Below are positions 1 to 5,588 of a stretch of DNA of 5,588 bases, piece by piece. The notes under the pieces were generated by a model. It did no database searches. It had not been told where the DNA came from and saw only the letters and a list, made by a program, of their open reading frames with translations. The DNA comes from Escherichia coli. Its GTDB lineage: Bacteria > Pseudomonadota > Gammaproteobacteria > Enterobacterales > Enterobacteriaceae. The stretch lies in the NCBI RefSeq assembly GCF_003334785.1, contig NZ_QOWV01000043.1. One strand, written 5' to 3'. Position numbers and translations under genes: made by a program. Every line of letters begins with the position of its first letter. Positions within the stretch are counted from its first letter, which is position 1.

Positions 1-26
1 AGACGGATTCATACATGTATTCCCGG

Positions 27-68
27 TGAAAAAAGACAAAACCCCGCGCACCGGAAAGGTGGCGGGGG
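27..68 (-). terminator. Intrinsic (rho-independent) terminator downstream of the 339-aa gene
   Basis: Plus 42-68 ccccgcgcacc-ggaaa-ggtggcggggg folds into a GC-rich stem of about 10 bp (two single-base bulges) with a 5-nt loop. Read on the minus strand, the hairpin is followed directly by ttttgtctttttt (plus 29-41), about 55 bp past the TAA stop at 122-124. There is no T-run on the plus-strand side, so it is unidirectional. Confidence 0.7.
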
Positions 69-121
69 ATTCACGGAGATAATATCTGTCTGAGATTATT
101 TAGAATGTAACAGGTAATGAA

Positions 122-1141
122 TTACTTCCTTCGCTTGTGTTCAAGATATTTCTCTGTAATCAGCATTTCAAAAAACTCTCCTGTTCTCAGACCGTAAACA
201 GTTCTGAGCTCATCAAGCATTTCTTTCACATTGCTTCTTATATGTATATTAATGGCCTTTTTACCATCACTCCGATATTTTTCCTTTTGTTTTTTCTGAT
301 GCCAGGCATGATTTATTCGTGTTCTGAACAGTTCAATGGTATCAGGCACTTCTTTCCATAAAGCAAAGGCGACAAGAGAGGCAAGATAATATTCTTTCGT
401 TGAAGATGGTATGAACCACCGGGTCACTGGGTTATGTACCGGATGTGTTTCATCCTGTTTTTGTTTCAGTCTTGTCCAGAACCACTGACACATTTCATCA
501 TCGTCAGGAAGGAGCCACTTAAACTTTTGACAAGCGCTTTTCTTTTTAAGCCACGCCTGCCTGAGTTCCTCGAGGTATATGCTTTTTGCATTTTTATTAA
601 TTAAAGAATGGCAGGAGTCAAAATATGAAATGATTACTTTTATTCGTTCGTTATGGGATGATGGATTATCCGGAAGGTTACTTTTTTTGTAAGTGTTTAA
701 CGTTTCATCGGTAACTGTTCGTATTTTTCTGACTTCAATTCCGTTTTTTATTCCTGATGAATTATGGTTTATTTTCGGGAAATTTGTATGATCTTCCTTC
801 GACAGATAAATAGTAGTCCAGGTAAAGAAAGTCGCAAGTTCGTCAGTTTTCAACCAGAGAAAACTCTCTTCAGGCAGTATTGCCTGCCCTGCAATAATTT
901 CAAGTTCATTAATTTCTTTGCTGAGAGTTTCTTCTGCAGTCGAACCAAAAACACCAAAAGAATTGTTTGAAGCTTTATAATACTTTTCTTTTAAAAACGA
1001 ATTAACATTTCTGATACAGTTTTGTGGGTTGTCAGGCGCAAACTGAGGGAATTCATTGGGGTATTTGTGATTCAGATATTCGGCATAAAACCGACATTTA
1101 CGGGGATCTTTGCATTTGATAAGCATCTGTTCGTTATTCAT
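122..1141 (-). CDS. Hypothetical protein, 339 aa; Cys-containing N-terminus and a C-terminal ribbon-helix-helix-like segment (by-eye inference)
   Basis: A 340-codon open frame in AT-rich DNA (about 32% G+C in a hand-counted sample at 601-660), where stop codons are frequent, so it is unlikely to be chance. ATG at 1139-1141 is preceded by GGAG (reverse complement of plus 1149-1152) with a 7-nt spacer. The terminator at 27-68 follows the stop. C-terminal residues KAINIHIRSNVKEMLDELRTVYGLRTGEFFEMLITEKYL show a strand-helix-turn-helix pattern reminiscent of Arc/MetJ/CopG/NikR N-domain. No catalytic motif recognised. Confidence 0.8.
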   Translation of the reverse strand: MNNEQMLIKCKDPRKCRFYAEYLNHKYPNEFPQFAPDNPQNCIRNVNSFLKEKYYKASNNSFGVFGSTAEETLSKEINELEIIAGQAILPEESFLWLKTDELATFFTWTTIYLSKEDHTNFPKINHNSSGIKNGIEVRKIRTVTDETLNTYKKSNLPDNPSSHNERIKVIISYFDSCHSLINKNAKSIYLEELRQAWLKKKSACQKFKWLLPDDDEMCQWFWTRLKQKQDETHPVHNPVTRWFIPSSTKEYYLASLVAFALWKEVPDTIELFRTRINHAWHQKKQKEKYRSDGKKAINIHIRSNVKEMLDELRTVYGLRTGEFFEMLITEKYLEHKRRK

Positions 1142-1470
1142 TATCTCACTCCATGTCGCCTCTCTTATAACAAAATCGTCTCAATTTTATTTTGTCACTA
1201 AGTGATTATCAAATGTTTTTGTTGTGATTTGCTTATGTTGTTAAATGTCTATGTCATGTTATCAGTGTTTTTATATAAAGATATATTGATATTTTTATGA
1301 TGGTGAAAAATCATATTTTCTTTTATATTCATTTGGTTATGCTTGTTTGTTCTGCATTTTGGGGATGACAGAAAAGAATGGGCTGTGTTGATCACATGCG
1401 CCGTATGCGCTCTCCAGGTTACAGCGCACCTCAATATTCAGTGTTTTCCTGTTGACTGGCATTGTTAATC

Positions 1471-1546
1471 TTATGTTTTGGTTTTGTTTTATTGTGTGGT
1501 TGTGAATGTTGTGTTTAGTTTGATGGTTGAGAAAGAAAAAAGAAGA
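1471..1546 (+). repeat. 76-nt cytosine-free GT-rich tract ending in an 18-nt purine run
   Basis: By direct reading there is no C on the plus strand between the c at 1470 and the c at 1547. The tract is rich in tgtt/ttgt/gttt units and ends with gagaaagaaaaaagaaga (1529-1546). The minus strand is correspondingly G-free and CA-rich. Confidence 0.6.
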
Positions 1547-2152
1547 CTATGATGCACTAATCAGGAAATATTTTCGACGCCGGTTGAGTTAAAAGAACAG
1601 ATAGAGTGGACAGGTGTTGTGTTAATAGTTTACGGCTGACAGTATTCTTATTTTAATAACAGGTGTTATTATTTATGGATTTATACAGACGATACTCCCG
1701 ATAAATAGTCAGGTGATGATGGTCGTTGAGTGGTTTTATAAGCTACGTATAGCTCTGTAAGACTTATTAATTCAACGATGACTACCGTTTATTGATATAC
1801 CTGTATTCGGGAAATGTCATAAAAAATGTCACGTTGTTTGCAGAATCTTTTGTTTTTTAGTTTCTGATACGCAATGACTAAGCAGGAGGACTCACTTTGT
1901 TTGTATGCTGAGCGTGATCGCCAGTGGAGATGAACAATTGACTCTTACATTGAAAAATATACTCTTTTGTATTTTATCGTTTATCCGCATGAAGTAAATA
2001 ATCTTCAGCAATGTTATTTATGTAAATATTATCATCTCACCCTGAGTGTTCATTTTATCAGTGTGATATTCCATTGTTTACTGATGAAATTAACCGATAA
2101 GTGATCTTGTTAAGATTGCCAGAACGACAGTTTTTGCTGAGTCCGTGCAATG

Positions 2153-2267
2153 GAAGATGTGTTATATCATCTATTTAAGCAATAAGTTTAATACAGATTT
2201 CAGAAGATGTGTTGGTGAGTTGATGACTGATTTTCAGAGGGGTATGGGAAAGTGTATGGGATCCCAT
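2153..2267. repeat. Short direct repeats plus a 12-bp perfect palindrome
   Basis: gaagatgtgtt occurs at 2153-2163 and again at 2203-2213 (11 bp, 50-bp spacing). gtatggga occurs at 2242-2249 and 2254-2261 (12-bp period), the second copy running into the perfect palindrome atgggatcccat (2256-2267). Confidence 0.5.
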
Positions 2268-2438
2268 AAAGAAAAAATCGTTATTGTTCAGTTGACGTAT
2301 ATTTCCGGGTGATGGCTCCAGTCAGCAGAACATGTGTTTTTCGATGAATGACCCAATAACTTTTTCGTGAATTTCCACGGAGCGTGAAAAGCAAATCGTT
2401 TTTCGGTCCAGTCGTTTGATGCGGGAACGGAGTGTCAG

Positions 2439-2723
2439 ATGGTGGTGCTCAATACGCCGGGTAAATATCAATACGATTTGAGGAACCATTTGCTGGTTAA
2501 TCTCTTTCCGATAGCATTGGATGCAGAAATAACTACATCCAATGTAAATAAGCATCAATTGCACAGAAGCAATATACCTGCGGCCCTCTCCGGAAATTCC
2601 GGTATCACTGACTACGTACCGTTTTCAGCAGAACGAAATGCGGCGATGGTCATTTGGCGGACAGCCATAGATAGCCGTCCGGCTGTGTGTAACGATGAGG
2701 AAGGAACCCCGGGAACGTTATGA
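2439..2723 (+). CDS. Hypothetical 94-aa ORF, convergent with the 190-aa gene (uncertain)
   Basis: ATG at 2439 preceded by GGAG (2429-2432) with a 6-nt spacer. It lies in a G+C-normal segment, and its translation looks more protein-like than the overlapping minus-strand ORF 2322..2564, which is Cys/His/Arg/Ile-heavy. Its stop at 2721-2723 is 1 nt from the stop of the 190-aa gene (2725-2727). No recognisable family. Confidence 0.3.
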   Translation: MVVLNTPGKYQYDLRNHLLVNLFPIALDAEITTSNVNKHQLHRSNIPAALSGNSGITDYVPFSAERNAAMVIWRTAIDSRPAVCNDEEGTPGTL

Positions 2724-2724
2724 A

Positions 2725-3297
2725 TCAACAGGCGTATAACAGGTACTCGTCAATCATCAGTTCCAGCTCGCGCTTTTCCCGTTTGCGCGCCACAGCCCAG
2801 TTTTCAAGCTCTGCATGTGATTTATGCTTTAACTCTTCAGTCCAGGGCTGCATGGAGTGGGCACACATCAGATCATACCAGCACAGCCATATTAGCGTGT
2901 GGTAGAGATCACGATCGTCGAAACGCCGGAGCAGGCTGTTCAGCCTGTTTGCCAGCCGGCTTTCGCCCAGACGATGTAGCTCACTGAGTAAAACGCCGCC
3001 CAGATTAAAATGCGTAAGCAGCATGATTTCATGGGTCTGAATGCTGGTCATTAACCCTTCCTGAATGGCAGGAATGAACGGTGGCGTTCCCGGGTTGACG
3101 ACCTGATAGAGTCCCTGTGGTGCCACTGAGATGATGGTGCCTTTTTCCGGTAGAAAAAAGTGGGCCAGGGTCAGGCGGTGATAACCATGAAGATGCGGAG
3201 AGCCCATTCCATGAGCGACAATAAACCGGGTTACACTTGCCATCCATTTCTGATGCTGAATTAGCAGCAGATCACACCGGTTTTCAAGTTTTTGCAT
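2725..3297 (-). CDS. Hypothetical protein, 190 aa, likely co-transcribed downstream of alpA
   Basis: ATG at 3295-3297 preceded by AGGAG (reverse complement of plus 3306-3310) with an 8-nt spacer. It starts 85 bp after the alpA stop on the same strand, with no terminator visible between them. G+C resembles alpA. In enterobacterial islands the gene after alpA is often annotated as an inovirus Gp2 / YfjJ-YagK-type protein, but I cannot confirm that from sequence memory. Confidence 0.75.
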   Translation of the reverse strand: MQKLENRCDLLLIQHQKWMASVTRFIVAHGMGSPHLHGYHRLTLAHFFLPEKGTIISVAPQGLYQVVNPGTPPFIPAIQEGLMTSIQTHEIMLLTHFNLGGVLLSELHRLGESRLANRLNSLLRRFDDRDLYHTLIWLCWYDLMCAHSMQPWTEELKHKSHAELENWAVARKREKRELELMIDEYLLYAC

Positions 3298-3382: not shown

Positions 3383-3589
3383 TTACGGACGGGATTGTGC
3401 AATACGCGCCTGCAACCAGGCTTCCACTTCACTTTTCAGCCATCGGGAGCTGCGGCCGAGTTTGATGGGGGCCGGAAAGGCACCATCTTTGATGAGCTTA
3501 TAAAACCACTTATCGGTTAAGCCGGTCAGTTGAGTGATAAACGCCATGTCGACCATCTGGTCATCCATCAGCGAAACTGGGGTCTTCAT
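3383..3589 (-). CDS. alpA: AlpA-family phage/island transcriptional regulator (excision activator-like), 68 aa
   Basis: Translation MKTPVSLMDDQMVDMAFITQLTGLTDKWFYKLIKDGAFPAPIKLGRSSRWLKSEVEAWLQARIAQSRP carries the characteristic AlpA/Vis-type helix-turn-helix signature (LTGL...Y.LIK.G.FP.PIKLG..S.RW...EVEAWL). ATG at 3587-3589 is preceded by GGAGG (reverse complement of plus 3599-3603) with a 9-nt spacer. Size is typical of the family. Confidence 0.88.
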   Translation of the reverse strand: MKTPVSLMDDQMVDMAFITQLTGLTDKWFYKLIKDGAFPAPIKLGRSSRWLKSEVEAWLQARIAQSRP

Positions 3590-3971: not shown

Positions 3972-4763
3972 TTATTCTCTGTAATTACAAACAACAGTGA
4001 TCTGATCCGGTTTTTTTACCGTTACGGGTTTCCGGGGATCAATTTTATAGACCGGGGTAATGACCACGCCGGAATTTATGGAGAAAAGCGGGATCCAGCA
4101 ATAAACGTCCGGATATTTCTGTGTCTCCGGAATACCTTTTGCGCCAGAGGCCATCAGATCTTTAACGCTCACGAAAAATGACTGCCGCAGATCAAAAAAG
4201 TACTCGTCATATATCACGTCTTTTGCCAGCAGGATGACTGCATTACCAACAGCCACTTTTACAGGTGTTTCGCCCGATGGATTATCGTGATTGTATATTG
4301 TTCTTTCGATATAAATAAAACAGGCATATTTCGTCTTCTCCCCGGATAGCTGCATCTGGTATTCGCAAATGTCTTTGATATACCGACTTTCAACCCTTCC
4401 AATCATCTTATCCCGGCGATAGTGTCTTTTATGTTTCAGCGCGTACAGAACACCATTTGAACTGTCAAACTCCAGGACTCTTCTGGTGAAAAGTTTGTTT
4501 TCCCAGATTTCCAGACAATACTTCTCTGCACTGACGACATTGCGTTTGCGAGGAAGATCCCGTTGATACACTCCATTTAATAAGCGTGACTGCAGTTCGC
4601 CTGCAAGTTGATAATAACAGTTAATATCGTTAAGGACAGGTGCTGTGGCGCTGAGTAATGCGTCGATTACCTTAGAGCGCGAAAGTTTGTGGGTATGACA
4701 GTACTCATCCACAATTCGCAGCGTCTCATCACTAGTCATATTGAAAGTTATACGTGTTGTCAT
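3972..4763 (-). CDS. Hypothetical protein, 263 aa; N-terminal ribbon-helix-helix DNA-binding domain fused to a C-terminal domain of about 220 aa with unknown function
   Basis: A 264-codon open frame (about 43% G+C in a hand-counted sample at 4201-4260). ATG at 4761-4763 is the first possible in-frame start, since an in-frame stop lies 6 codons upstream. N-terminal residues TRITFNMTSDETLRIVDEYCHTHKLSRSKVIDALLSAT match a strand-helix-turn-helix RHH pattern (compare the NikR N-domain RVTITLDDDLLETLD...). No obvious Shine-Dalgarno: the upstream sequence is aacagaaaacttcatcATG. Confidence 0.75.
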   Translation of the reverse strand: MTTRITFNMTSDETLRIVDEYCHTHKLSRSKVIDALLSATAPVLNDINCYYQLAGELQSRLLNGVYQRDLPRKRNVVSAEKYCLEIWENKLFTRRVLEFDSSNGVLYALKHKRHYRRDKMIGRVESRYIKDICEYQMQLSGEKTKYACFIYIERTIYNHDNPSGETPVKVAVGNAVILLAKDVIYDEYFFDLRQSFFVSVKDLMASGAKGIPETQKYPDVYCWIPLFSINSGVVITPVYKIDPRKPVTVKKPDQITVVCNYRE

Positions 4764-5086
4764 GATGAAGTTTTCTGTTAATCATATTGGTTGATATGCA
4801 TAACATTCCATAAAAAACACTGTTAATTCATATAATTAATTTTTTTGTGTGTTTTTTCCTTGAGTGGTAGAAAGCAGGGTTACTGCCACTGTACTCAGCA
4901 TAACTCTATCACATAGAACCACAGAAAATGAAGCATTGCTCAGGGGGGAGGTACTTATACGAGTTCTCTGAACCGTGATAACCAGTATTTTTCATGTTGG
5001 GTGATTTGTCGTTACAGCTACAGGCAGTTCATGTACTATTAAAAAATAATTAAGGTTAATTAGTATTATTTATAGAAGTATGGTTA

Positions 5087-5286
5087 TGTAAATGAACCCT
5101 GTAATTCCACCTTGTAACCCAATCCTGTAGACGGATCTCTCATAAAGATATGCTCATAGAAGTATCTGTACAGAGATATTCTCTGTAGTAGTACTTGTAA
5201 CTCTGTCCTTAACTCTCTCTGCTGTAATGTAATCTCGTAACACCTGAATATAAATCTGTCATGTACACACACTGACTGTAATGTAC
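5087..5286. repeat. Cluster of TGTA-core short repeats (candidate operator or iteron array)
   Basis: About eleven TGTA/CGTA-core motifs in roughly 200 bp: ctgtaat at 5099, 5222 and 5276; ttgtaac at 5112 and 5195; ctgtag at 5125 and 5183; ctgtaca at 5166; tgtaca at 5262. The 10-mer ctgtaatgta recurs at 5222-5231 and 5276-5285. The cluster lies 320-520 bp upstream of the 263-aa gene start. Confidence 0.45.
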
Positions 5287-5428
5287 TTTGTTAAGTAATG
5301 CCTGTTGTGTGGAGGCTATTCTGGCTAAATAAGAGTATGAATCGTCAGTGTCAATAGTGTGGATAACGGTGGTTGAGGGAGAACTGTTAATGTTTTGCTT
5401 TTGCAGTTCACCTGATGAATTTTGGTAG

Positions 5429-5437
5429 TGATATAAT
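5429..5437 (+). promoter_or_regulatory. Candidate extended -10 promoter element (TGnTATAAT) facing the right edge of the window
   Basis: tgaTATAAT at 5429-5437 is a perfect extended -10 consensus. No good -35 is present (cacctg at a 17-bp spacing). The context is AT-rich, so a chance match is plausible. No ORF start with an SD was found downstream within the window. Confidence 0.25.
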
Positions 5438-5588
5438 ATTGTGATCGTAAAAAGTATACCTTATGCCATTAAACAGTCTTCTGGAGTGTTGTTTACTAGT
5501 AAGCGACTCGTCAGAACCGTATTGATATTTACTGAGAGCTCAGATCAACTTTCCAGGGCAACAGATCGCGTACCCGGTTTGCCGGCCA

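What the first reader, a model, noticed from the sequence alone, without database searches (positions are those of the whole stretch)
1142..2300. About 1.2 kb of AT-rich DNA with no convincing ORF between two cargo genes
Bacterial intergenic regions are usually under 300 bp. This stretch is about 33% G+C (sample count), has no ORF with a credible start and RBS above 60 aa, and contains local repeats and a strongly strand-biased tract. Possible explanations are a decayed gene, a silenced promoter region serving the 339-aa gene, an unannotated non-coding RNA, or a replication/packaging cis element. I cannot distinguish these from sequence alone.
Basis: seen in the sequence. Interest (0 to 1): 0.5.

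Follow-up and report, generated by a model that had tools for sequence, protein, structure and literature searches.

The report
AT-rich non-coding spacer with promoter-operator
This 1.16-kb gene-free, AT-rich stretch of an E. coli genomic island is real non-coding DNA: only the ~100 bp next to the downstream regulator gene (its promoter and a conserved 13-bp palindrome) look constrained, and the rest evolves about as fast as dead DNA, so it is largely ordinary.

Summary
Window 1142-2298 is 1157 nt at 34% G+C. It has no ORF beyond chance length and contains a real G+T-rich tract. The "local repeats" are chance-level.

The window is a CP4-type E. coli island. The stretch lies between an IS1-family remnant (2299-2469) and a 339-aa putative ribbon-helix-helix regulator gene (122-1141, minus strand). 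It occurs in 246 of 5426 complete E. coli genomes and is never annotated.

Negative results:
- Six-frame searches of Rfam, NCBIfam, a 5.8-billion and a 1.84-billion protein set found only spurious short self-ORFs.
- No small ORF is intact in all 30 alleles.
- There is no RNA covariation, no iterons, no ssDNA hairpins, and no plasmid or phage homology.

Diversity (0.069) exceeds that of third codon positions in the adjacent gene (0.055).

The one constrained piece is 1184-1224: the best sigma-70-like promoter, with the palindrome GTCACTAAGTGAT in its spacer. Homologues in Edwardsiella, Rahnella, Yersinia and three metagenome lineages carry the same palindrome 63-78 nt upstream of the start codon. 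Each also has a long (565-1683 nt), otherwise unalignable, AT-rich gap.

Best reading: promoter-operator plus a near-neutral spacer, probably H-NS/Hha- and Rho-silenced. This last part is inferred, not shown.

The parts
122..1141 (-). 339-aa gene served by the region. It is a putative DNA-binding regulator with a C-terminal ribbon-helix-helix-like segment (KKAINIHIR-SNVKEMLDELRTVYG-LRTGE-FFEMLITEKY).
   Evidence: ORF list. RefSeq annotates it as 'replication regulatory protein RepB', 'transcriptional regulator' or 'hypothetical protein'. Homologues at 48-59% identity exist in Edwardsiella, Rahnella and Yersinia; alignment A4. The Pfam RepB-RCR_reg match is weak (E 0.06-0.2). The AlphaFold model is low-confidence, with coil-helix-helix at the C-terminus.
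29..67 (-). Intrinsic-terminator-like hairpin with a U-run, downstream of the 339-aa gene. It suggests the gene is a largely self-contained transcription unit.
   Evidence: Terminator scan. Fold of 20-125 minus strand: CCCCGCCACC/GGUGCGCGGGG stem followed by UUUUGUCUUUUUU, z = -3.1.
1149..1152 (-). Shine-Dalgarno GGAG, 7 nt upstream of the ATG.
   Evidence: Read directly from the sequence. Invariant in 9 E. coli alleles.
1184..1212 (-). Sigma-70-like promoter: -35 TTGATA (1212-1207), 17-nt spacer, -10 TAAAAT (1189-1184).
   Evidence: It matches 10 of 12 positions, joint best of 17 sites in the window. The allelic variant TACAAT keeps A2 and T6 of the -10. Function is inferred, not shown.
1194..1206 (.). 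13-bp palindromic operator GTCACTAAGTGAT (family consensus TAATCACTnAGTGAT), lying in the promoter spacer.
   Evidence: It is present with 0-1 mismatch 63-78 nt upstream of the start codon in all 7 lineages. It is the only k-mer set shared beyond the null. It sits in the longest invariant run of the E. coli alleles, 1195-1224 (30 nt; null 95th percentile 25, 99th percentile 31).
1213..2298 (.). AT-rich spacer that evolves near-neutrally, with no detectable gene, RNA gene or repeat.
1462..1546 (.). G+T-rich tract on the plus strand, so C+A-rich and G-poor on the sense (minus) strand. It is indel-prone. Composition resembles a Rho-utilisation (rut) site.
   Evidence: Minus strand 1477-1554 has C 23 and G 1. 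An 11-nt duplication and small indels occur among alleles.
2185..2262 (-). Second strong C>G window on the sense strand (C 26, G 4), at the upstream entry of the spacer.
   Evidence: This and 1477-1554 are the two top C>G windows of the whole 5.6-kb window on either strand.
2299..2469 (-). IS1-family element remnant (terminal inverted repeat GGTGATGGCTCC... at 2299) that bounds the region.
   Evidence: RefSeq annotates 'IS1 family transposase, incomplete'. Alleles show this segment as 90 nt (no IS1 element), ~784-786 nt, ~168-171 nt, or ~2494 nt with an added IS21.

Best explanation
The stretch is genuine non-coding DNA with two unequal parts.

(1) Proximal part, about 1142-1224. This is the control region of the 339-aa gene. 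It holds a Shine-Dalgarno sequence and a sigma-70-type promoter. A 13-bp palindrome (GTCACTAAGTGAT) lies in the promoter spacer. The palindrome is most likely the operator of a dimeric ribbon-helix-helix repressor, probably the 339-aa protein itself, acting by autorepression. The gene ends at its own intrinsic terminator.

(2) Distal part, about 1.07 kb (1213-2298). This is AT-rich spacer that changes about as fast as neutral DNA. It most likely acts only through its composition. It could serve as a platform for H-NS/Hha silencing of this low-G+C module. Through two C-rich, G-poor untranslated tracts on the sense strand, it could also serve as a Rho-dependent stop for transcripts reading through from the upstream alpA/190-aa genes, which have no predicted intrinsic terminator.

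What is shown: absence of coding or RNA-gene signal, the conservation pattern, the promoter and palindrome sequences, and the composition. What is inferred: who binds the palindrome, H-NS/Hha occupancy, and Rho termination.
For: - Non-coding status: the longest stop-free frame equals chance. No ORF is intact in all 30 distinct alleles. Indel sizes in the nine-allele alignment include 3, 4, 8, 11 and 26 nt, mostly not multiples of 3.
- Near-neutral change: pi is 0.069 in the stretch, against 0.020, 0.016 and 0.055 at codon positions 1, 2 and 3 of the adjacent gene. Divergence is similar to that of the dead IS1 remnant.
- Constraint only at 1195-1224.
- Promoter: 10 of 12 matches, joint best in the window.
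- Palindrome: present at -63 to -78 in 7 of 7 lineages whose gaps are otherwise unalignable.
- The C-terminus of the protein has a beta-helix-helix sequence pattern that is invariant across homologues.
- Architecture: a long AT-rich gap (565-1683 nt, G+C 38-43% against about 50% for the three loci computed) precedes the homologous gene in every lineage examined. It is the largest gap in each of the five relative loci with substantial flanks, L047, L049, L052, L055 and L056.
- Composition: the sense strand has C>G in 6 of 7 lineages and in a non-homologous 1.2-kb gap of EAEC 042. Neighbouring 4-fold sites do not share this skew. The two top C>G windows of the window lie in the spacer.
- An hha paralogue sits about 4.7 kb away in the same island. 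Island-borne Hha2/Hha3 modulate Ag43 expression in EAEC 042 (PMC4864382).
Against: - No experimental data on transcription, H-NS/Hha binding or Rho were reachable. The 042 RNA-seq table could not be matched to this locus.
- The ribbon-helix-helix assignment is weak: Pfam E is 0.06-0.2, there is no PDB sequence relative, and the model has pLDDT 61.
- In other genera the palindrome lies upstream of, rather than inside, the best -10/-35 pair. Its role, repression or activation, is therefore uncertain.
- Near-neutral substitution does not explain why all but 3 of 246 genomes keep at least 80% of the length.
- Edwardsiella has the opposite C/G skew.
- Promoter-like sites are no more frequent than in shuffles.
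Confidence: 0.5

Rival explanations
1. The spacer is pure relic. It would be the fully eroded remains of former cargo at a variable hotspot of the island, with no function beyond the promoter-operator, and retained only because too little time has passed for deletion.
For: Diversity is at or above that of third codon positions and similar to the dead IS1 remnant. The gap cannot be aligned between genera, and its length varies from 565 to 1683 nt. The position sits next to variable content: IS1, IS21, defence genes, and different neighbours in different genera.
Against: No relic of any protein family is detectable, even with a full HMMER scan of 1.84 billion proteins and a profile of the neighbouring Gp2-like genes. 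The gap is long in 7 of 7 lineages and keeps 1109-1165 nt in all 38 E. coli-type copies measured at up to 15% divergence, while the adjacent ~1 kb gained or lost 85-2300 nt several times. The recurrent sense-strand C>G skew is not expected of random relics.
Confidence: 0.27
2. The spacer is transcribed as a long 5' leader of the 339-aa gene, or as an independent long non-coding RNA, from a distal promoter. It would then regulate the gene in cis by attenuation, or by binding of an sRNA or protein to the CA-rich tract.
For: The sense strand is A+C-rich and G-poor in most lineages. Sense-strand promoter-like sites lie at 2080-2052, 2026-1998 and 1998-1971. No intrinsic terminator lies between them and the gene.
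Against: There is no Rfam hit. Sense-strand folding z-scores are about zero and there is no covariation. No conserved block lies outside 1195-1224. Promoter-like sites are at chance density. A good proximal promoter with an operator already accounts for expression.
Confidence: 0.12
3. The stretch is a cis element for replication, transfer or packaging of the excised island. Candidates are an origin for the island's inovirus-Gp2-like initiator, an oriT, or a single-strand promoter like those in plasmid leading regions.
For: In Edwardsiella, Rahnella and Yersinia the gap lies directly between a Gp2-like (YagK/YfjJ) gene and the RepB-like gene. The downstream core genes (antirestriction, DUF932, RadC) resemble plasmid leading-region genes; this resemblance is from prior knowledge. 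One plus-strand window folds well as RNA (z -4.4).
Against: There are no iterons or tandem repeats. DnaA boxes are at chance frequency. There are no inverted repeats of 14 nt or more within 400 nt of each other. Folding as ssDNA is unremarkable on both strands (z -1.2 and -0.9). There is no similarity to any plasmid or phage record. In E. coli the Gp2-like gene is several kb away. No shared motif other than the operator was found.
Confidence: 0.04
4. The stretch is a frameshifted pseudogene of a known protein family.
For: Its length would fit one gene. The neighbouring DNA shows decay, in the form of the IS1 remnant.
Against: Six-frame searches found nothing in NCBIfam or in 5.8 billion proteins. 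In 1.84 billion representatives they found only 30-151-aa self-ORFs, several read with TGA as Trp. RefSeq annotation marks no pseudogene under any listed match. There are no hits to ORFs of related islands.
Confidence: 0.03

Closest known systems
Autoregulated promoter-operator of ribbon-helix-helix repressors, e.g. CopG on the Pcr promoter of plasmid pMV158, which binds a 13-bp pseudosymmetric element overlapping the promoter (comparison from prior knowledge)
   Same: A 13-bp palindrome lies inside or next to the core promoter of the gene, which encodes a protein with a beta-helix-helix C-terminus. The site is conserved with the gene across genera.
   Different: The protein is 339 aa with a large N-terminal part of unknown fold, not a ~45-aa CopG. 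The Pfam match to RepB-RCR_reg is below threshold. Binding is untested. The context is a chromosomal island, not a rolling-circle plasmid.
H-NS/Hha-silenced AT-rich upstream regions of horizontally acquired operons, e.g. the long hlyR-hlyC regulatory region of the haemolysin operon or the LEE1 regulatory region (comparison from prior knowledge); Hha2/Hha3 control of agn43 in EAEC 042 (PMC4864382)
   Same: G+C is 34% in a ~51% G+C host. The stretch is long and gene-free, lies upstream of an island transcription unit, and shares the island with an hha paralogue.
   Different: No occupancy or derepression data exist for this locus. No specific high-affinity H-NS motif or curvature was tested.
Rho-dependent terminators (rut sites) that silence or insulate foreign DNA in E. 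coli (comparison from prior knowledge: Cardinale et al. 2008; Peters et al. 2012)
   Same: The sense strand carries untranslated, C-rich, G-poor, weakly structured tracts of 78 nt or more (C 23/G 1 and C 26/G 4). They lie downstream of genes that lack an intrinsic terminator.
   Different: The resemblance is in composition only. No termination end-points and no bicyclomycin data are available.
Large intergenic region of filamentous phages (origin plus packaging signal), considered because the island encodes an inovirus Gp2-family protein
   Same: It is a long non-coding region next to a Gp2-like gene in three genera.
   Different: It has no hairpins, no repeats and no conserved nick-site-like block. 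In E. coli it is not adjacent to the Gp2-like gene.

Membership tests
Pseudogene of a known protein family | Translated similarity to a protein family in one or several frames | tested here: not met
   Six frames gave 0 hits against NCBIfam at E<=1. All six frames gave 0 hits against 5.8 billion proteins. All stop-free pieces of 24 aa or more, searched against 1.84 billion proteins, gave only 30-151-aa self-ORFs at 67-100% identity. A Gp2-like profile scored best E 0.78.
Pseudogene of a known protein family | Pseudogene call by homology-based annotation in carrier genomes | tested here: not met
   The features under the match were 'none', or only the edge of the IS1 fragment, in all ~110 listed RefSeq records.
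Small protein gene | ORF kept intact across alleles | tested here: not met
   Of the 31 ORFs of 10 codons or more scored, none is intact in all 30 alleles. The best reaches 90%, with 9-12 distinct products.
Described RNA family (Rfam 15) | Covariance-model match | tested here: not met
   No match at E<=1 on either strand of the window.
Novel structured non-coding RNA | Folding energy beyond shuffles | tested here: inconclusive
   Of 80 windows, one (1712-1831, plus strand) has z = -4.4. The tool's own fold of 1700-1840 gives z = -2.8 on the plus strand and -0.5 on the minus strand.
Novel structured non-coding RNA | Compensatory base changes supporting the helices | tested here: not met
   Across 15 distinct alleles, 1 of 40 pairs shows a double change, in one sequence only. 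The covariation term is -1.35 kcal/mol, and the consensus fold differs from the single-sequence fold. Power is limited because the alleles are at least 85% identical.
Classical sRNA gene | Intrinsic terminator at the 3' end | tested here: not met
   No terminator-like sites in 1000-2800 on either strand.
Sigma-70 promoter with repressor operator (RHH/CopG-like autoregulation) | -35 and -10 hexamers at 16-18-nt spacing upstream of the gene | tested here: met
   TTGATA-17-TAAAAT at 1212-1184, 10 of 12 matches. This is a pattern match only.
Sigma-70 promoter with repressor operator (RHH/CopG-like autoregulation) | Palindromic site overlapping the promoter and conserved with the gene | tested here: met
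   ATCACTnAGTGAT with 0-1 mismatch at -63 to -78 in 7 of 7 lineages. The longest invariant run lies at 1195-1224. It is the only over-shared k-mer set.
Sigma-70 promoter with repressor operator (RHH/CopG-like autoregulation) | Ribbon-helix-helix fold of the gene product | tested here: inconclusive
   The sequence pattern is conserved. Pfam RepB-RCR_reg scores E 0.06-0.2. There is no PDB relative. The model has pLDDT 61, with coil-helix-helix at residues 289-338.
Sigma-70 promoter with repressor operator (RHH/CopG-like autoregulation) | Binding of the protein to the site, with repression | not testable with these tools
   This needs EMSA or footprinting and reporter fusions.
H-NS/Hha xenogeneic-silencing target | AT-rich tract well below the host G+C | tested here: met
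   G+C is 34.0% over 1157 nt, and 36.9% in the adjacent gene.
H-NS/Hha xenogeneic-silencing target | H-NS/Hha occupancy, or derepression in hns or hha mutants | not testable with these tools
   The island carries hha, and Hha2/Hha3 affect agn43 in strain 042. The 042 RNA-seq table could not be matched to this locus. The 042 island examined lacks this stretch.
Rho-dependent terminator (rut site) | C-rich, G-poor, poorly structured untranslated RNA of about 80 nt | tested here: met
   Minus strand 1477-1554 has C 23/G 1, and 2185-2262 has C 26/G 4. These are the top two windows in the whole window. Minus-strand z-scores are about 0 there.
Rho-dependent terminator (rut site) | Rho-dependent 3' ends, or read-through with bicyclomycin | not testable with these tools
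   This needs Term-seq or RNA-seq with and without bicyclomycin.
Replication origin, oriT or single-strand promoter | Iterons, DnaA boxes or AT-rich repeats | tested here: not met
   No tandem repeats. Only chance-level two-copy matches. DnaA-box matches number 8 against 7.6 expected, with none exact inside the stretch.
Replication origin, oriT or single-strand promoter | Inverted repeats or a stable ssDNA hairpin | tested here: not met
   No inverted pairs of 14 nt or more. DNA folding of 1640-1900 gives z -1.2 (plus strand) and -0.9 (minus strand).
Replication origin, oriT or single-strand promoter | Homology to plasmid or phage cis elements | tested here: not met
   No blastn match in 72,556 plasmids or 50,697 phage records.
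Mobile repeat (IS, MITE or REP) | Several dispersed copies per genome | tested here: not met
   The median is 1 place per carrier genome and the maximum is 2. All copies are in the same island context.
RfaH-dependent operon leader | ops element GGCGGTAGnnT on the sense strand | tested here: not met
   At 2 or fewer mismatches there are 3 matches against 7.8 expected, and none on the sense strand of the stretch.

The most novel reading that the evidence does not exclude
The long, AT-rich gap with a C+A-rich sense strand may be a conserved functional module of CP4-type islands. It would be kept for length and strand composition rather than for sequence. It would work as a Rho/H-NS-dependent transcriptional insulator or switch, separating the excision and cargo side (alpA, Gp2-like gene, defence genes) from the core operon. 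A family-specific ribbon-helix-helix regulator bound at the TAATCACTnAGTGAT operator would act as gatekeeper.
Probability: 0.25. Interest if true: 0.5.

Novelty: new member of a known kind. Interest (0 to 1): 0.28.

Why it matters
The practical value is modest. The work removes a suspicious 1.2-kb "hole" from the list of possible hidden genes or RNAs. It also gives a concrete, testable control element for a poorly studied regulator of a widespread island family that carries Ag43, antirestriction and toxin-antitoxin genes: a promoter with a 13-bp palindrome conserved from E. coli to Yersinia, Rahnella and Edwardsiella.

One observation may be useful beyond this locus. A long AT-rich gap with a C>G sense strand recurs upstream of the core genes in several genera without any sequence conservation. 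This could help in studying how foreign DNA is kept silent or insulated by H-NS/Hha and Rho. That link is still only an inference.

Tried and rejected
- Pseudogene: six-frame translations were searched against NCBIfam, 5.8 billion proteins and 1.84 billion representatives. All ORFs of related loci were run by tblastn, and a Gp2-like HMM was tried. Only self-ORFs and noise came back.
- Small ORFs: the 30-aa hydrophobic ORF at 1905-1997, downstream of an AGGAGG, looked like a possible type I toxin. It is broken by CAA->TAA in several alleles and intact in only 67%.
- RNA gene: Rfam, a sliding z-score scan and alifold on the best window gave no support.
- Origin, oriT or Frpo-like element: tests for repeats, DnaA boxes, ssDNA folding and plasmid or phage homology were all negative. 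A loose resemblance of 1582-1612 to the f1 nick region (GTCCAC...GTTCTTTTAA) was noted by eye. It lacks the inverted repeat and was not found in the other genera, so it was dropped.
- RfaH ops element: absent.
- Replication-strand mutational skew as the cause of the G+T bias: rejected, because 4-fold sites of the four neighbouring genes show no such skew.
- A 28-nt similarity between window 1419-1446 and the Gp2-proximal end of the Rahnella and Yersinia gaps is not significant and is variable among E. coli alleles.
- Using the IS1 remnant as a deletion-rate control: only a few events (one ~615-nt and one 85-nt deletion, one IS21 insertion) were seen, too few for statistics.
- Experimental support from EAEC 042 RNA-seq (PMC5861252, Table S1): the stored table is truncated and its identifiers did not match. 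The 042 island I fetched lacks the 339-aa gene and this stretch.
- A genome-contig scan with the 339-aa protein returned only one contig, a probably mis-binned MAG.
Full report
**Context**

The window is 100% identical to the E. coli 300709 chromosome (NZ_CP025903.1) and lies in a CP4-type genomic island. All real genes in the window are on the minus strand:
- a 263-aa gene (3972-4763);
- an AlpA-like gene (3383-3589);
- a 190-aa gene (2725-3297);
- a 339-aa gene (122-1141).

Beyond the window come a YeeP/YfjP-type GTPase gene, agn43, antirestriction, RadC-like and CbtA/CbeA genes. RefSeq annotates a truncated IS1-family transposase at 2322-2468. Its terminal inverted repeat starts at 2299. 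[quoted passage not shown]

**Checking the observation**

- G+C is 34.0%, against 36.9% for the 339-aa gene and 46-52% for the genes to the right.
- The longest stop-free frame in the stretch is 69 codons. Shuffles give a mean of 74.5.
- The G+T-rich tract is real. Positions 1462-1530 are 85.5% G+T, and a 76-nt run without C spans 1471-1546. This exceeds all 1000 shuffles.
- The "local repeats" are not meaningful. There are only two-copy 14-15-nt matches and no tandem repeats.

**Distribution and rate of change**

The stretch occurs in 246 of 5426 complete E. coli genomes, always on the chromosome, with a median of one copy. Identity is 85-100%. In every listed record nothing is annotated under the match, apart from the edge of the IS1 fragment in some. 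The 339-aa gene occurs in essentially the same genomes (256), at 93.5-100% identity. There is no match in plasmid or phage collections.

I assembled 30 distinct alleles from 8 diverged RefSeq loci and 36 metagenome contigs. The metagenome contigs were fished with an exact 25-mer at 1866-1890, so that block is biased towards conservation.
- Nucleotide diversity is 0.069 in the stretch. It is 0.020, 0.016 and 0.055 at codon positions 1, 2 and 3 of the adjacent gene.
- Divergence is of the same order as in the dead IS1 remnant.
- Indel sizes in the nine-allele alignment include 3, 4, 8, 11 and 26 nt, so mostly not multiples of three.

The bulk of the stretch therefore changes about as fast as unconstrained DNA. 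One caveat applies. Some alleles are mosaics: L003 is 99% identical in the gene but 88% in the stretch. The gene and the stretch do not always share one history.

**Is it a decayed gene?**

I found no support.
- Six-frame translations gave nothing in NCBIfam at E<=1.
- They gave nothing in the word-indexed 5.8-billion-protein set.
- A full HMMER scan of 1.84 billion representatives, using every stop-free piece of 24 aa or more from both strands, returned 23 hits. All were 30-151 aa at 67-100% identity, so they are ORFs called on this same DNA. The longest ones contain Trp where the sequence has TGA, so they come from a wrong genetic code.
- tblastn of all ORFs of 70 aa or more from every fetched locus gave only self-hits and noise. 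A profile of the neighbouring Gp2-like proteins did the same.
- None of the 31 ORFs of 10 codons or more that I scored is intact in all 30 alleles. This includes a 30-aa hydrophobic ORF at 1905-1997.

**Is it an RNA gene?**

- Rfam gave no match at E<=1.
- No intrinsic terminator lies in 1000-2800.
- A sliding fold scan gave one notable window, 1712-1831 on the plus strand, with z = -4.4. The minus strand showed nothing. The tool's own shuffles give z = -2.8 for 1700-1840.
- Across 15 distinct alleles the consensus fold differs from the single-sequence fold. Only one of 40 pairs has a double change, in one sequence, and the inner hairpin is broken in several alleles.
- Statistical power is limited because the alleles are close to each other.

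**Is it an origin, transfer origin or single-strand promoter?**

- There are no iterons or tandem repeats.
- DnaA boxes are at chance frequency.
- There are no inverted repeats of 14 nt or more.
- ssDNA folding is unremarkable on both strands.
- There is no ops element.

**What is constrained**

In nine E. coli alleles, 71% of columns are invariant. The longest invariant run is 30 nt at 1195-1224; in the null the 95th percentile is 25 and the 99th is 31. Every run distal to position 1225 is 15 nt or shorter; a 20-nt run at 1158-1177 lies in the proximal control region.

This run covers the -35 box of the best sigma-70-like promoter on the sense strand: TTGATA at 1212-1207, a 17-nt spacer, and TAAAAT at 1189-1184. 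The promoter matches 10 of 12 positions, joint best of 17 sites in the window. Its spacer contains the palindrome GTCACTAAGTGAT (1194-1206). A GGAG lies 7 nt upstream of the ATG.

Downstream of the gene there is a canonical terminator hairpin with a U-run at 29-67. The 339-aa gene therefore looks like a self-contained unit.

**Relatives in other genera**

The 339-aa protein has homologues at 48-59% identity in Edwardsiella tarda, Rahnella inusitata, Yersinia kristensenii and three metagenome lineages. In the five lineages with enough downstream sequence, the GTPase gene follows the homologue. In all six, a gene-free gap precedes it: 1089, 1557, 1377, 565, 1683 and 797 nt. In each of the five loci with substantial flanks (L047, L049, L052, L055, L056), this is the largest gap.
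- G+C of the gaps is 38-43%, against about 50% for the three loci where I computed the locus value.
- In four of these lineages the gap separates the gene from a divergent Gp2-like (YagK/YfjJ)-alpA pair.
- The gaps cannot be aligned with each other or with E. coli.

The one exception is the motif TAATCACTnAGTGAT. It occurs with 0-1 mismatch 63-78 nt upstream of the start codon in all seven lineages. A k-mer census shows that this is the only motif shared beyond a Markov null. Rahnella and Yersinia carry both half-sites (ATCACT and AGTGAT) again at the far end of the gap, next to the Gp2-like gene; L055 and L057 carry an AGTGAT half-site there.

The C-terminus of the protein, KKAINIHIR / SNVKEMLDELRTVYG / LRTGE / FFEMLITEKY, is nearly invariant and reads as strand-helix-helix. 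Formal support for a ribbon-helix-helix fold is weak:
- Pfam RepB-RCR_reg scores E 0.06-0.2;
- there is no PDB sequence relative;
- the AlphaFold model has pLDDT 61, with coil-helix-helix at residues 289-338.

A 13-bp palindrome in or next to the promoter of a gene for such a protein is the classical arrangement for autoregulation by ribbon-helix-helix repressors such as CopG. That comparison comes from prior knowledge. The binding partner here is inferred.

**The remaining ~1.07 kb**

Two features argue against pure junk.
- The gap is long in every lineage examined. In 38 E. coli-type copies it keeps 1109-1165 nt at up to 15% divergence. Over the same tree, the adjacent ~1 kb shows an IS1 insertion, a ~615-nt deletion, an 85-nt deletion and an IS21 insertion. 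This is too few events for a statistical test.
- The sense strand has C>G and A>T in E. coli (C/G 1.57) and in five of the six other lineages (1.16-1.75). Edwardsiella is reversed. The same skew is found in a non-homologous 1229-nt gap upstream of the GTPase gene in an EAEC 042 island that lacks the 339-aa gene.

The skew is not a locus-wide mutational bias. Four-fold sites of the four neighbouring genes give a GC skew of -0.04 on the plus strand, against +0.22 in the stretch. The two strongest C>G 78-nt windows of the whole window, on either strand, both lie in the stretch on the sense strand: 1477-1554 (C 23, G 1) and 2185-2262 (C 26, G 4).

From prior knowledge, this is the composition of Rho-utilisation sites. 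No intrinsic terminator follows the co-directional 190-aa gene. Transcripts reading through from that gene would enter this untranslated tract.

The low G+C also fits H-NS/Hha silencing. So does the hha paralogue about 4.7 kb away in the same island, and the report that island-borne Hha2/Hha3 modulate Ag43 expression in EAEC 042 (PMC4864382). None of this was tested for this locus. My attempt to use the 042 hns/hha RNA-seq table failed.

**Verdict**

- The decayed-gene, RNA-gene and origin readings are not supported.
- The proximal ~100 bp form a promoter with a conserved palindromic operator. This is well supported by sequence and comparative evidence, but its function is inferred.
- The distal ~1 kb is near-neutral, AT-rich spacer. 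Its recurrent length and strand composition suggest a compositional role in H-NS/Hha silencing or Rho-dependent insulation, held with moderate confidence. The main rival is plain relic DNA.

This is a new example of a known kind of element. Interest is low to moderate.

Noticed in passing
window 2299-2469: This is a remnant of a diverged IS1-family element. Across alleles, the segment between the spacer and the downstream conserved flank is 90 nt (no IS1 element; L004, L029, L037, L041), about 784-786 nt (near-complete element, frameshifted; L005 and others), about 168-171 nt (as here), or about 2494 nt with an added IS21.
   Followed up: yes
window 2439-2723 (+): RefSeq annotates a 94-aa 'hypothetical protein' (WP_000261147.1) here. 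Its start codon lies inside the IS1 remnant. Many alleles carry an 85-nt deletion inside it, and it is not annotated in those records. It is probably a spurious ORF.
   Followed up: partly
window 29-67 (-): A canonical intrinsic terminator (GC-rich hairpin followed by UUUUGUCUUUUUU) lies between the 339-aa gene and the GTPase gene. The first 101 nt of the window are 98% identical to the region upstream of the GTPase gene in an EAEC 042 island that lacks the 339-aa gene.
   Followed up: partly
window 4764-5588: A second long gene-free AT-rich stretch (37% G+C, more than 800 nt) lies upstream of the 263-aa gene. It has a 10-of-12 promoter-like site at 5092-5065 (minus strand) and an exact DnaA-box match at 5358-5366. 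It was not analysed further.
   Followed up: no
window 3972-4763 (-): The N-terminus of the 263-aa protein (TRITFNMTSDETLRIVDEYCHTHKLSRSKVIDALL) weakly matches the aCcr1 family (E 0.0025). It reads like another ribbon-helix-helix DNA-binding motif.
   Followed up: no
L049 4444-4495 and L052 4624-4675: In Rahnella and Yersinia a 49-nt block (86% identical) lies at the Gp2-like-gene end of the gap. It contains the same half-sites, ATCACT and AGTGAT, about 17 nt apart. One regulator may therefore act at both ends of the divergent region.
   Followed up: partly
L056 3097-3236: The gap of this metagenome lineage contains C+A-rich 17-nt tandem-like repeats (consensus about AYTCAATTACATTCAAC). This recalls the CA-rich tract of the E. 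coli spacer.
   Followed up: no
L060 37990-39218 (E. coli 042, NC_017626.1 2332990-2334218): An island variant without the 339-aa gene has a different, non-homologous 1229-nt gene-free gap upstream of the GTPase gene. It is 38% G+C and has the same sense-strand C>G and A>T skew.
   Followed up: partly
proteins P0010, P0012, P0018: Public protein sets contain 134-151-aa 'proteins' called on this non-coding DNA with TGA read as Trp. These are artefacts of a wrong genetic code in metagenome gene calling.
   Followed up: yes
L010 (JAIJJM010000108.1): A contig labelled as a Collinsella sp. MAG carries the 339-aa gene at 99% identity, together with the spacer. It is almost certainly mis-binned E. 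coli DNA.
   Followed up: no
window 1853-1890: This is the second most conserved patch of the spacer among RefSeq alleles: three invariant runs of 11-13 nt, containing AGGAGG on the plus strand (CCTCCT on the sense strand). It is not beyond the chance run length, and no conserved ORF follows it.
   Followed up: partly
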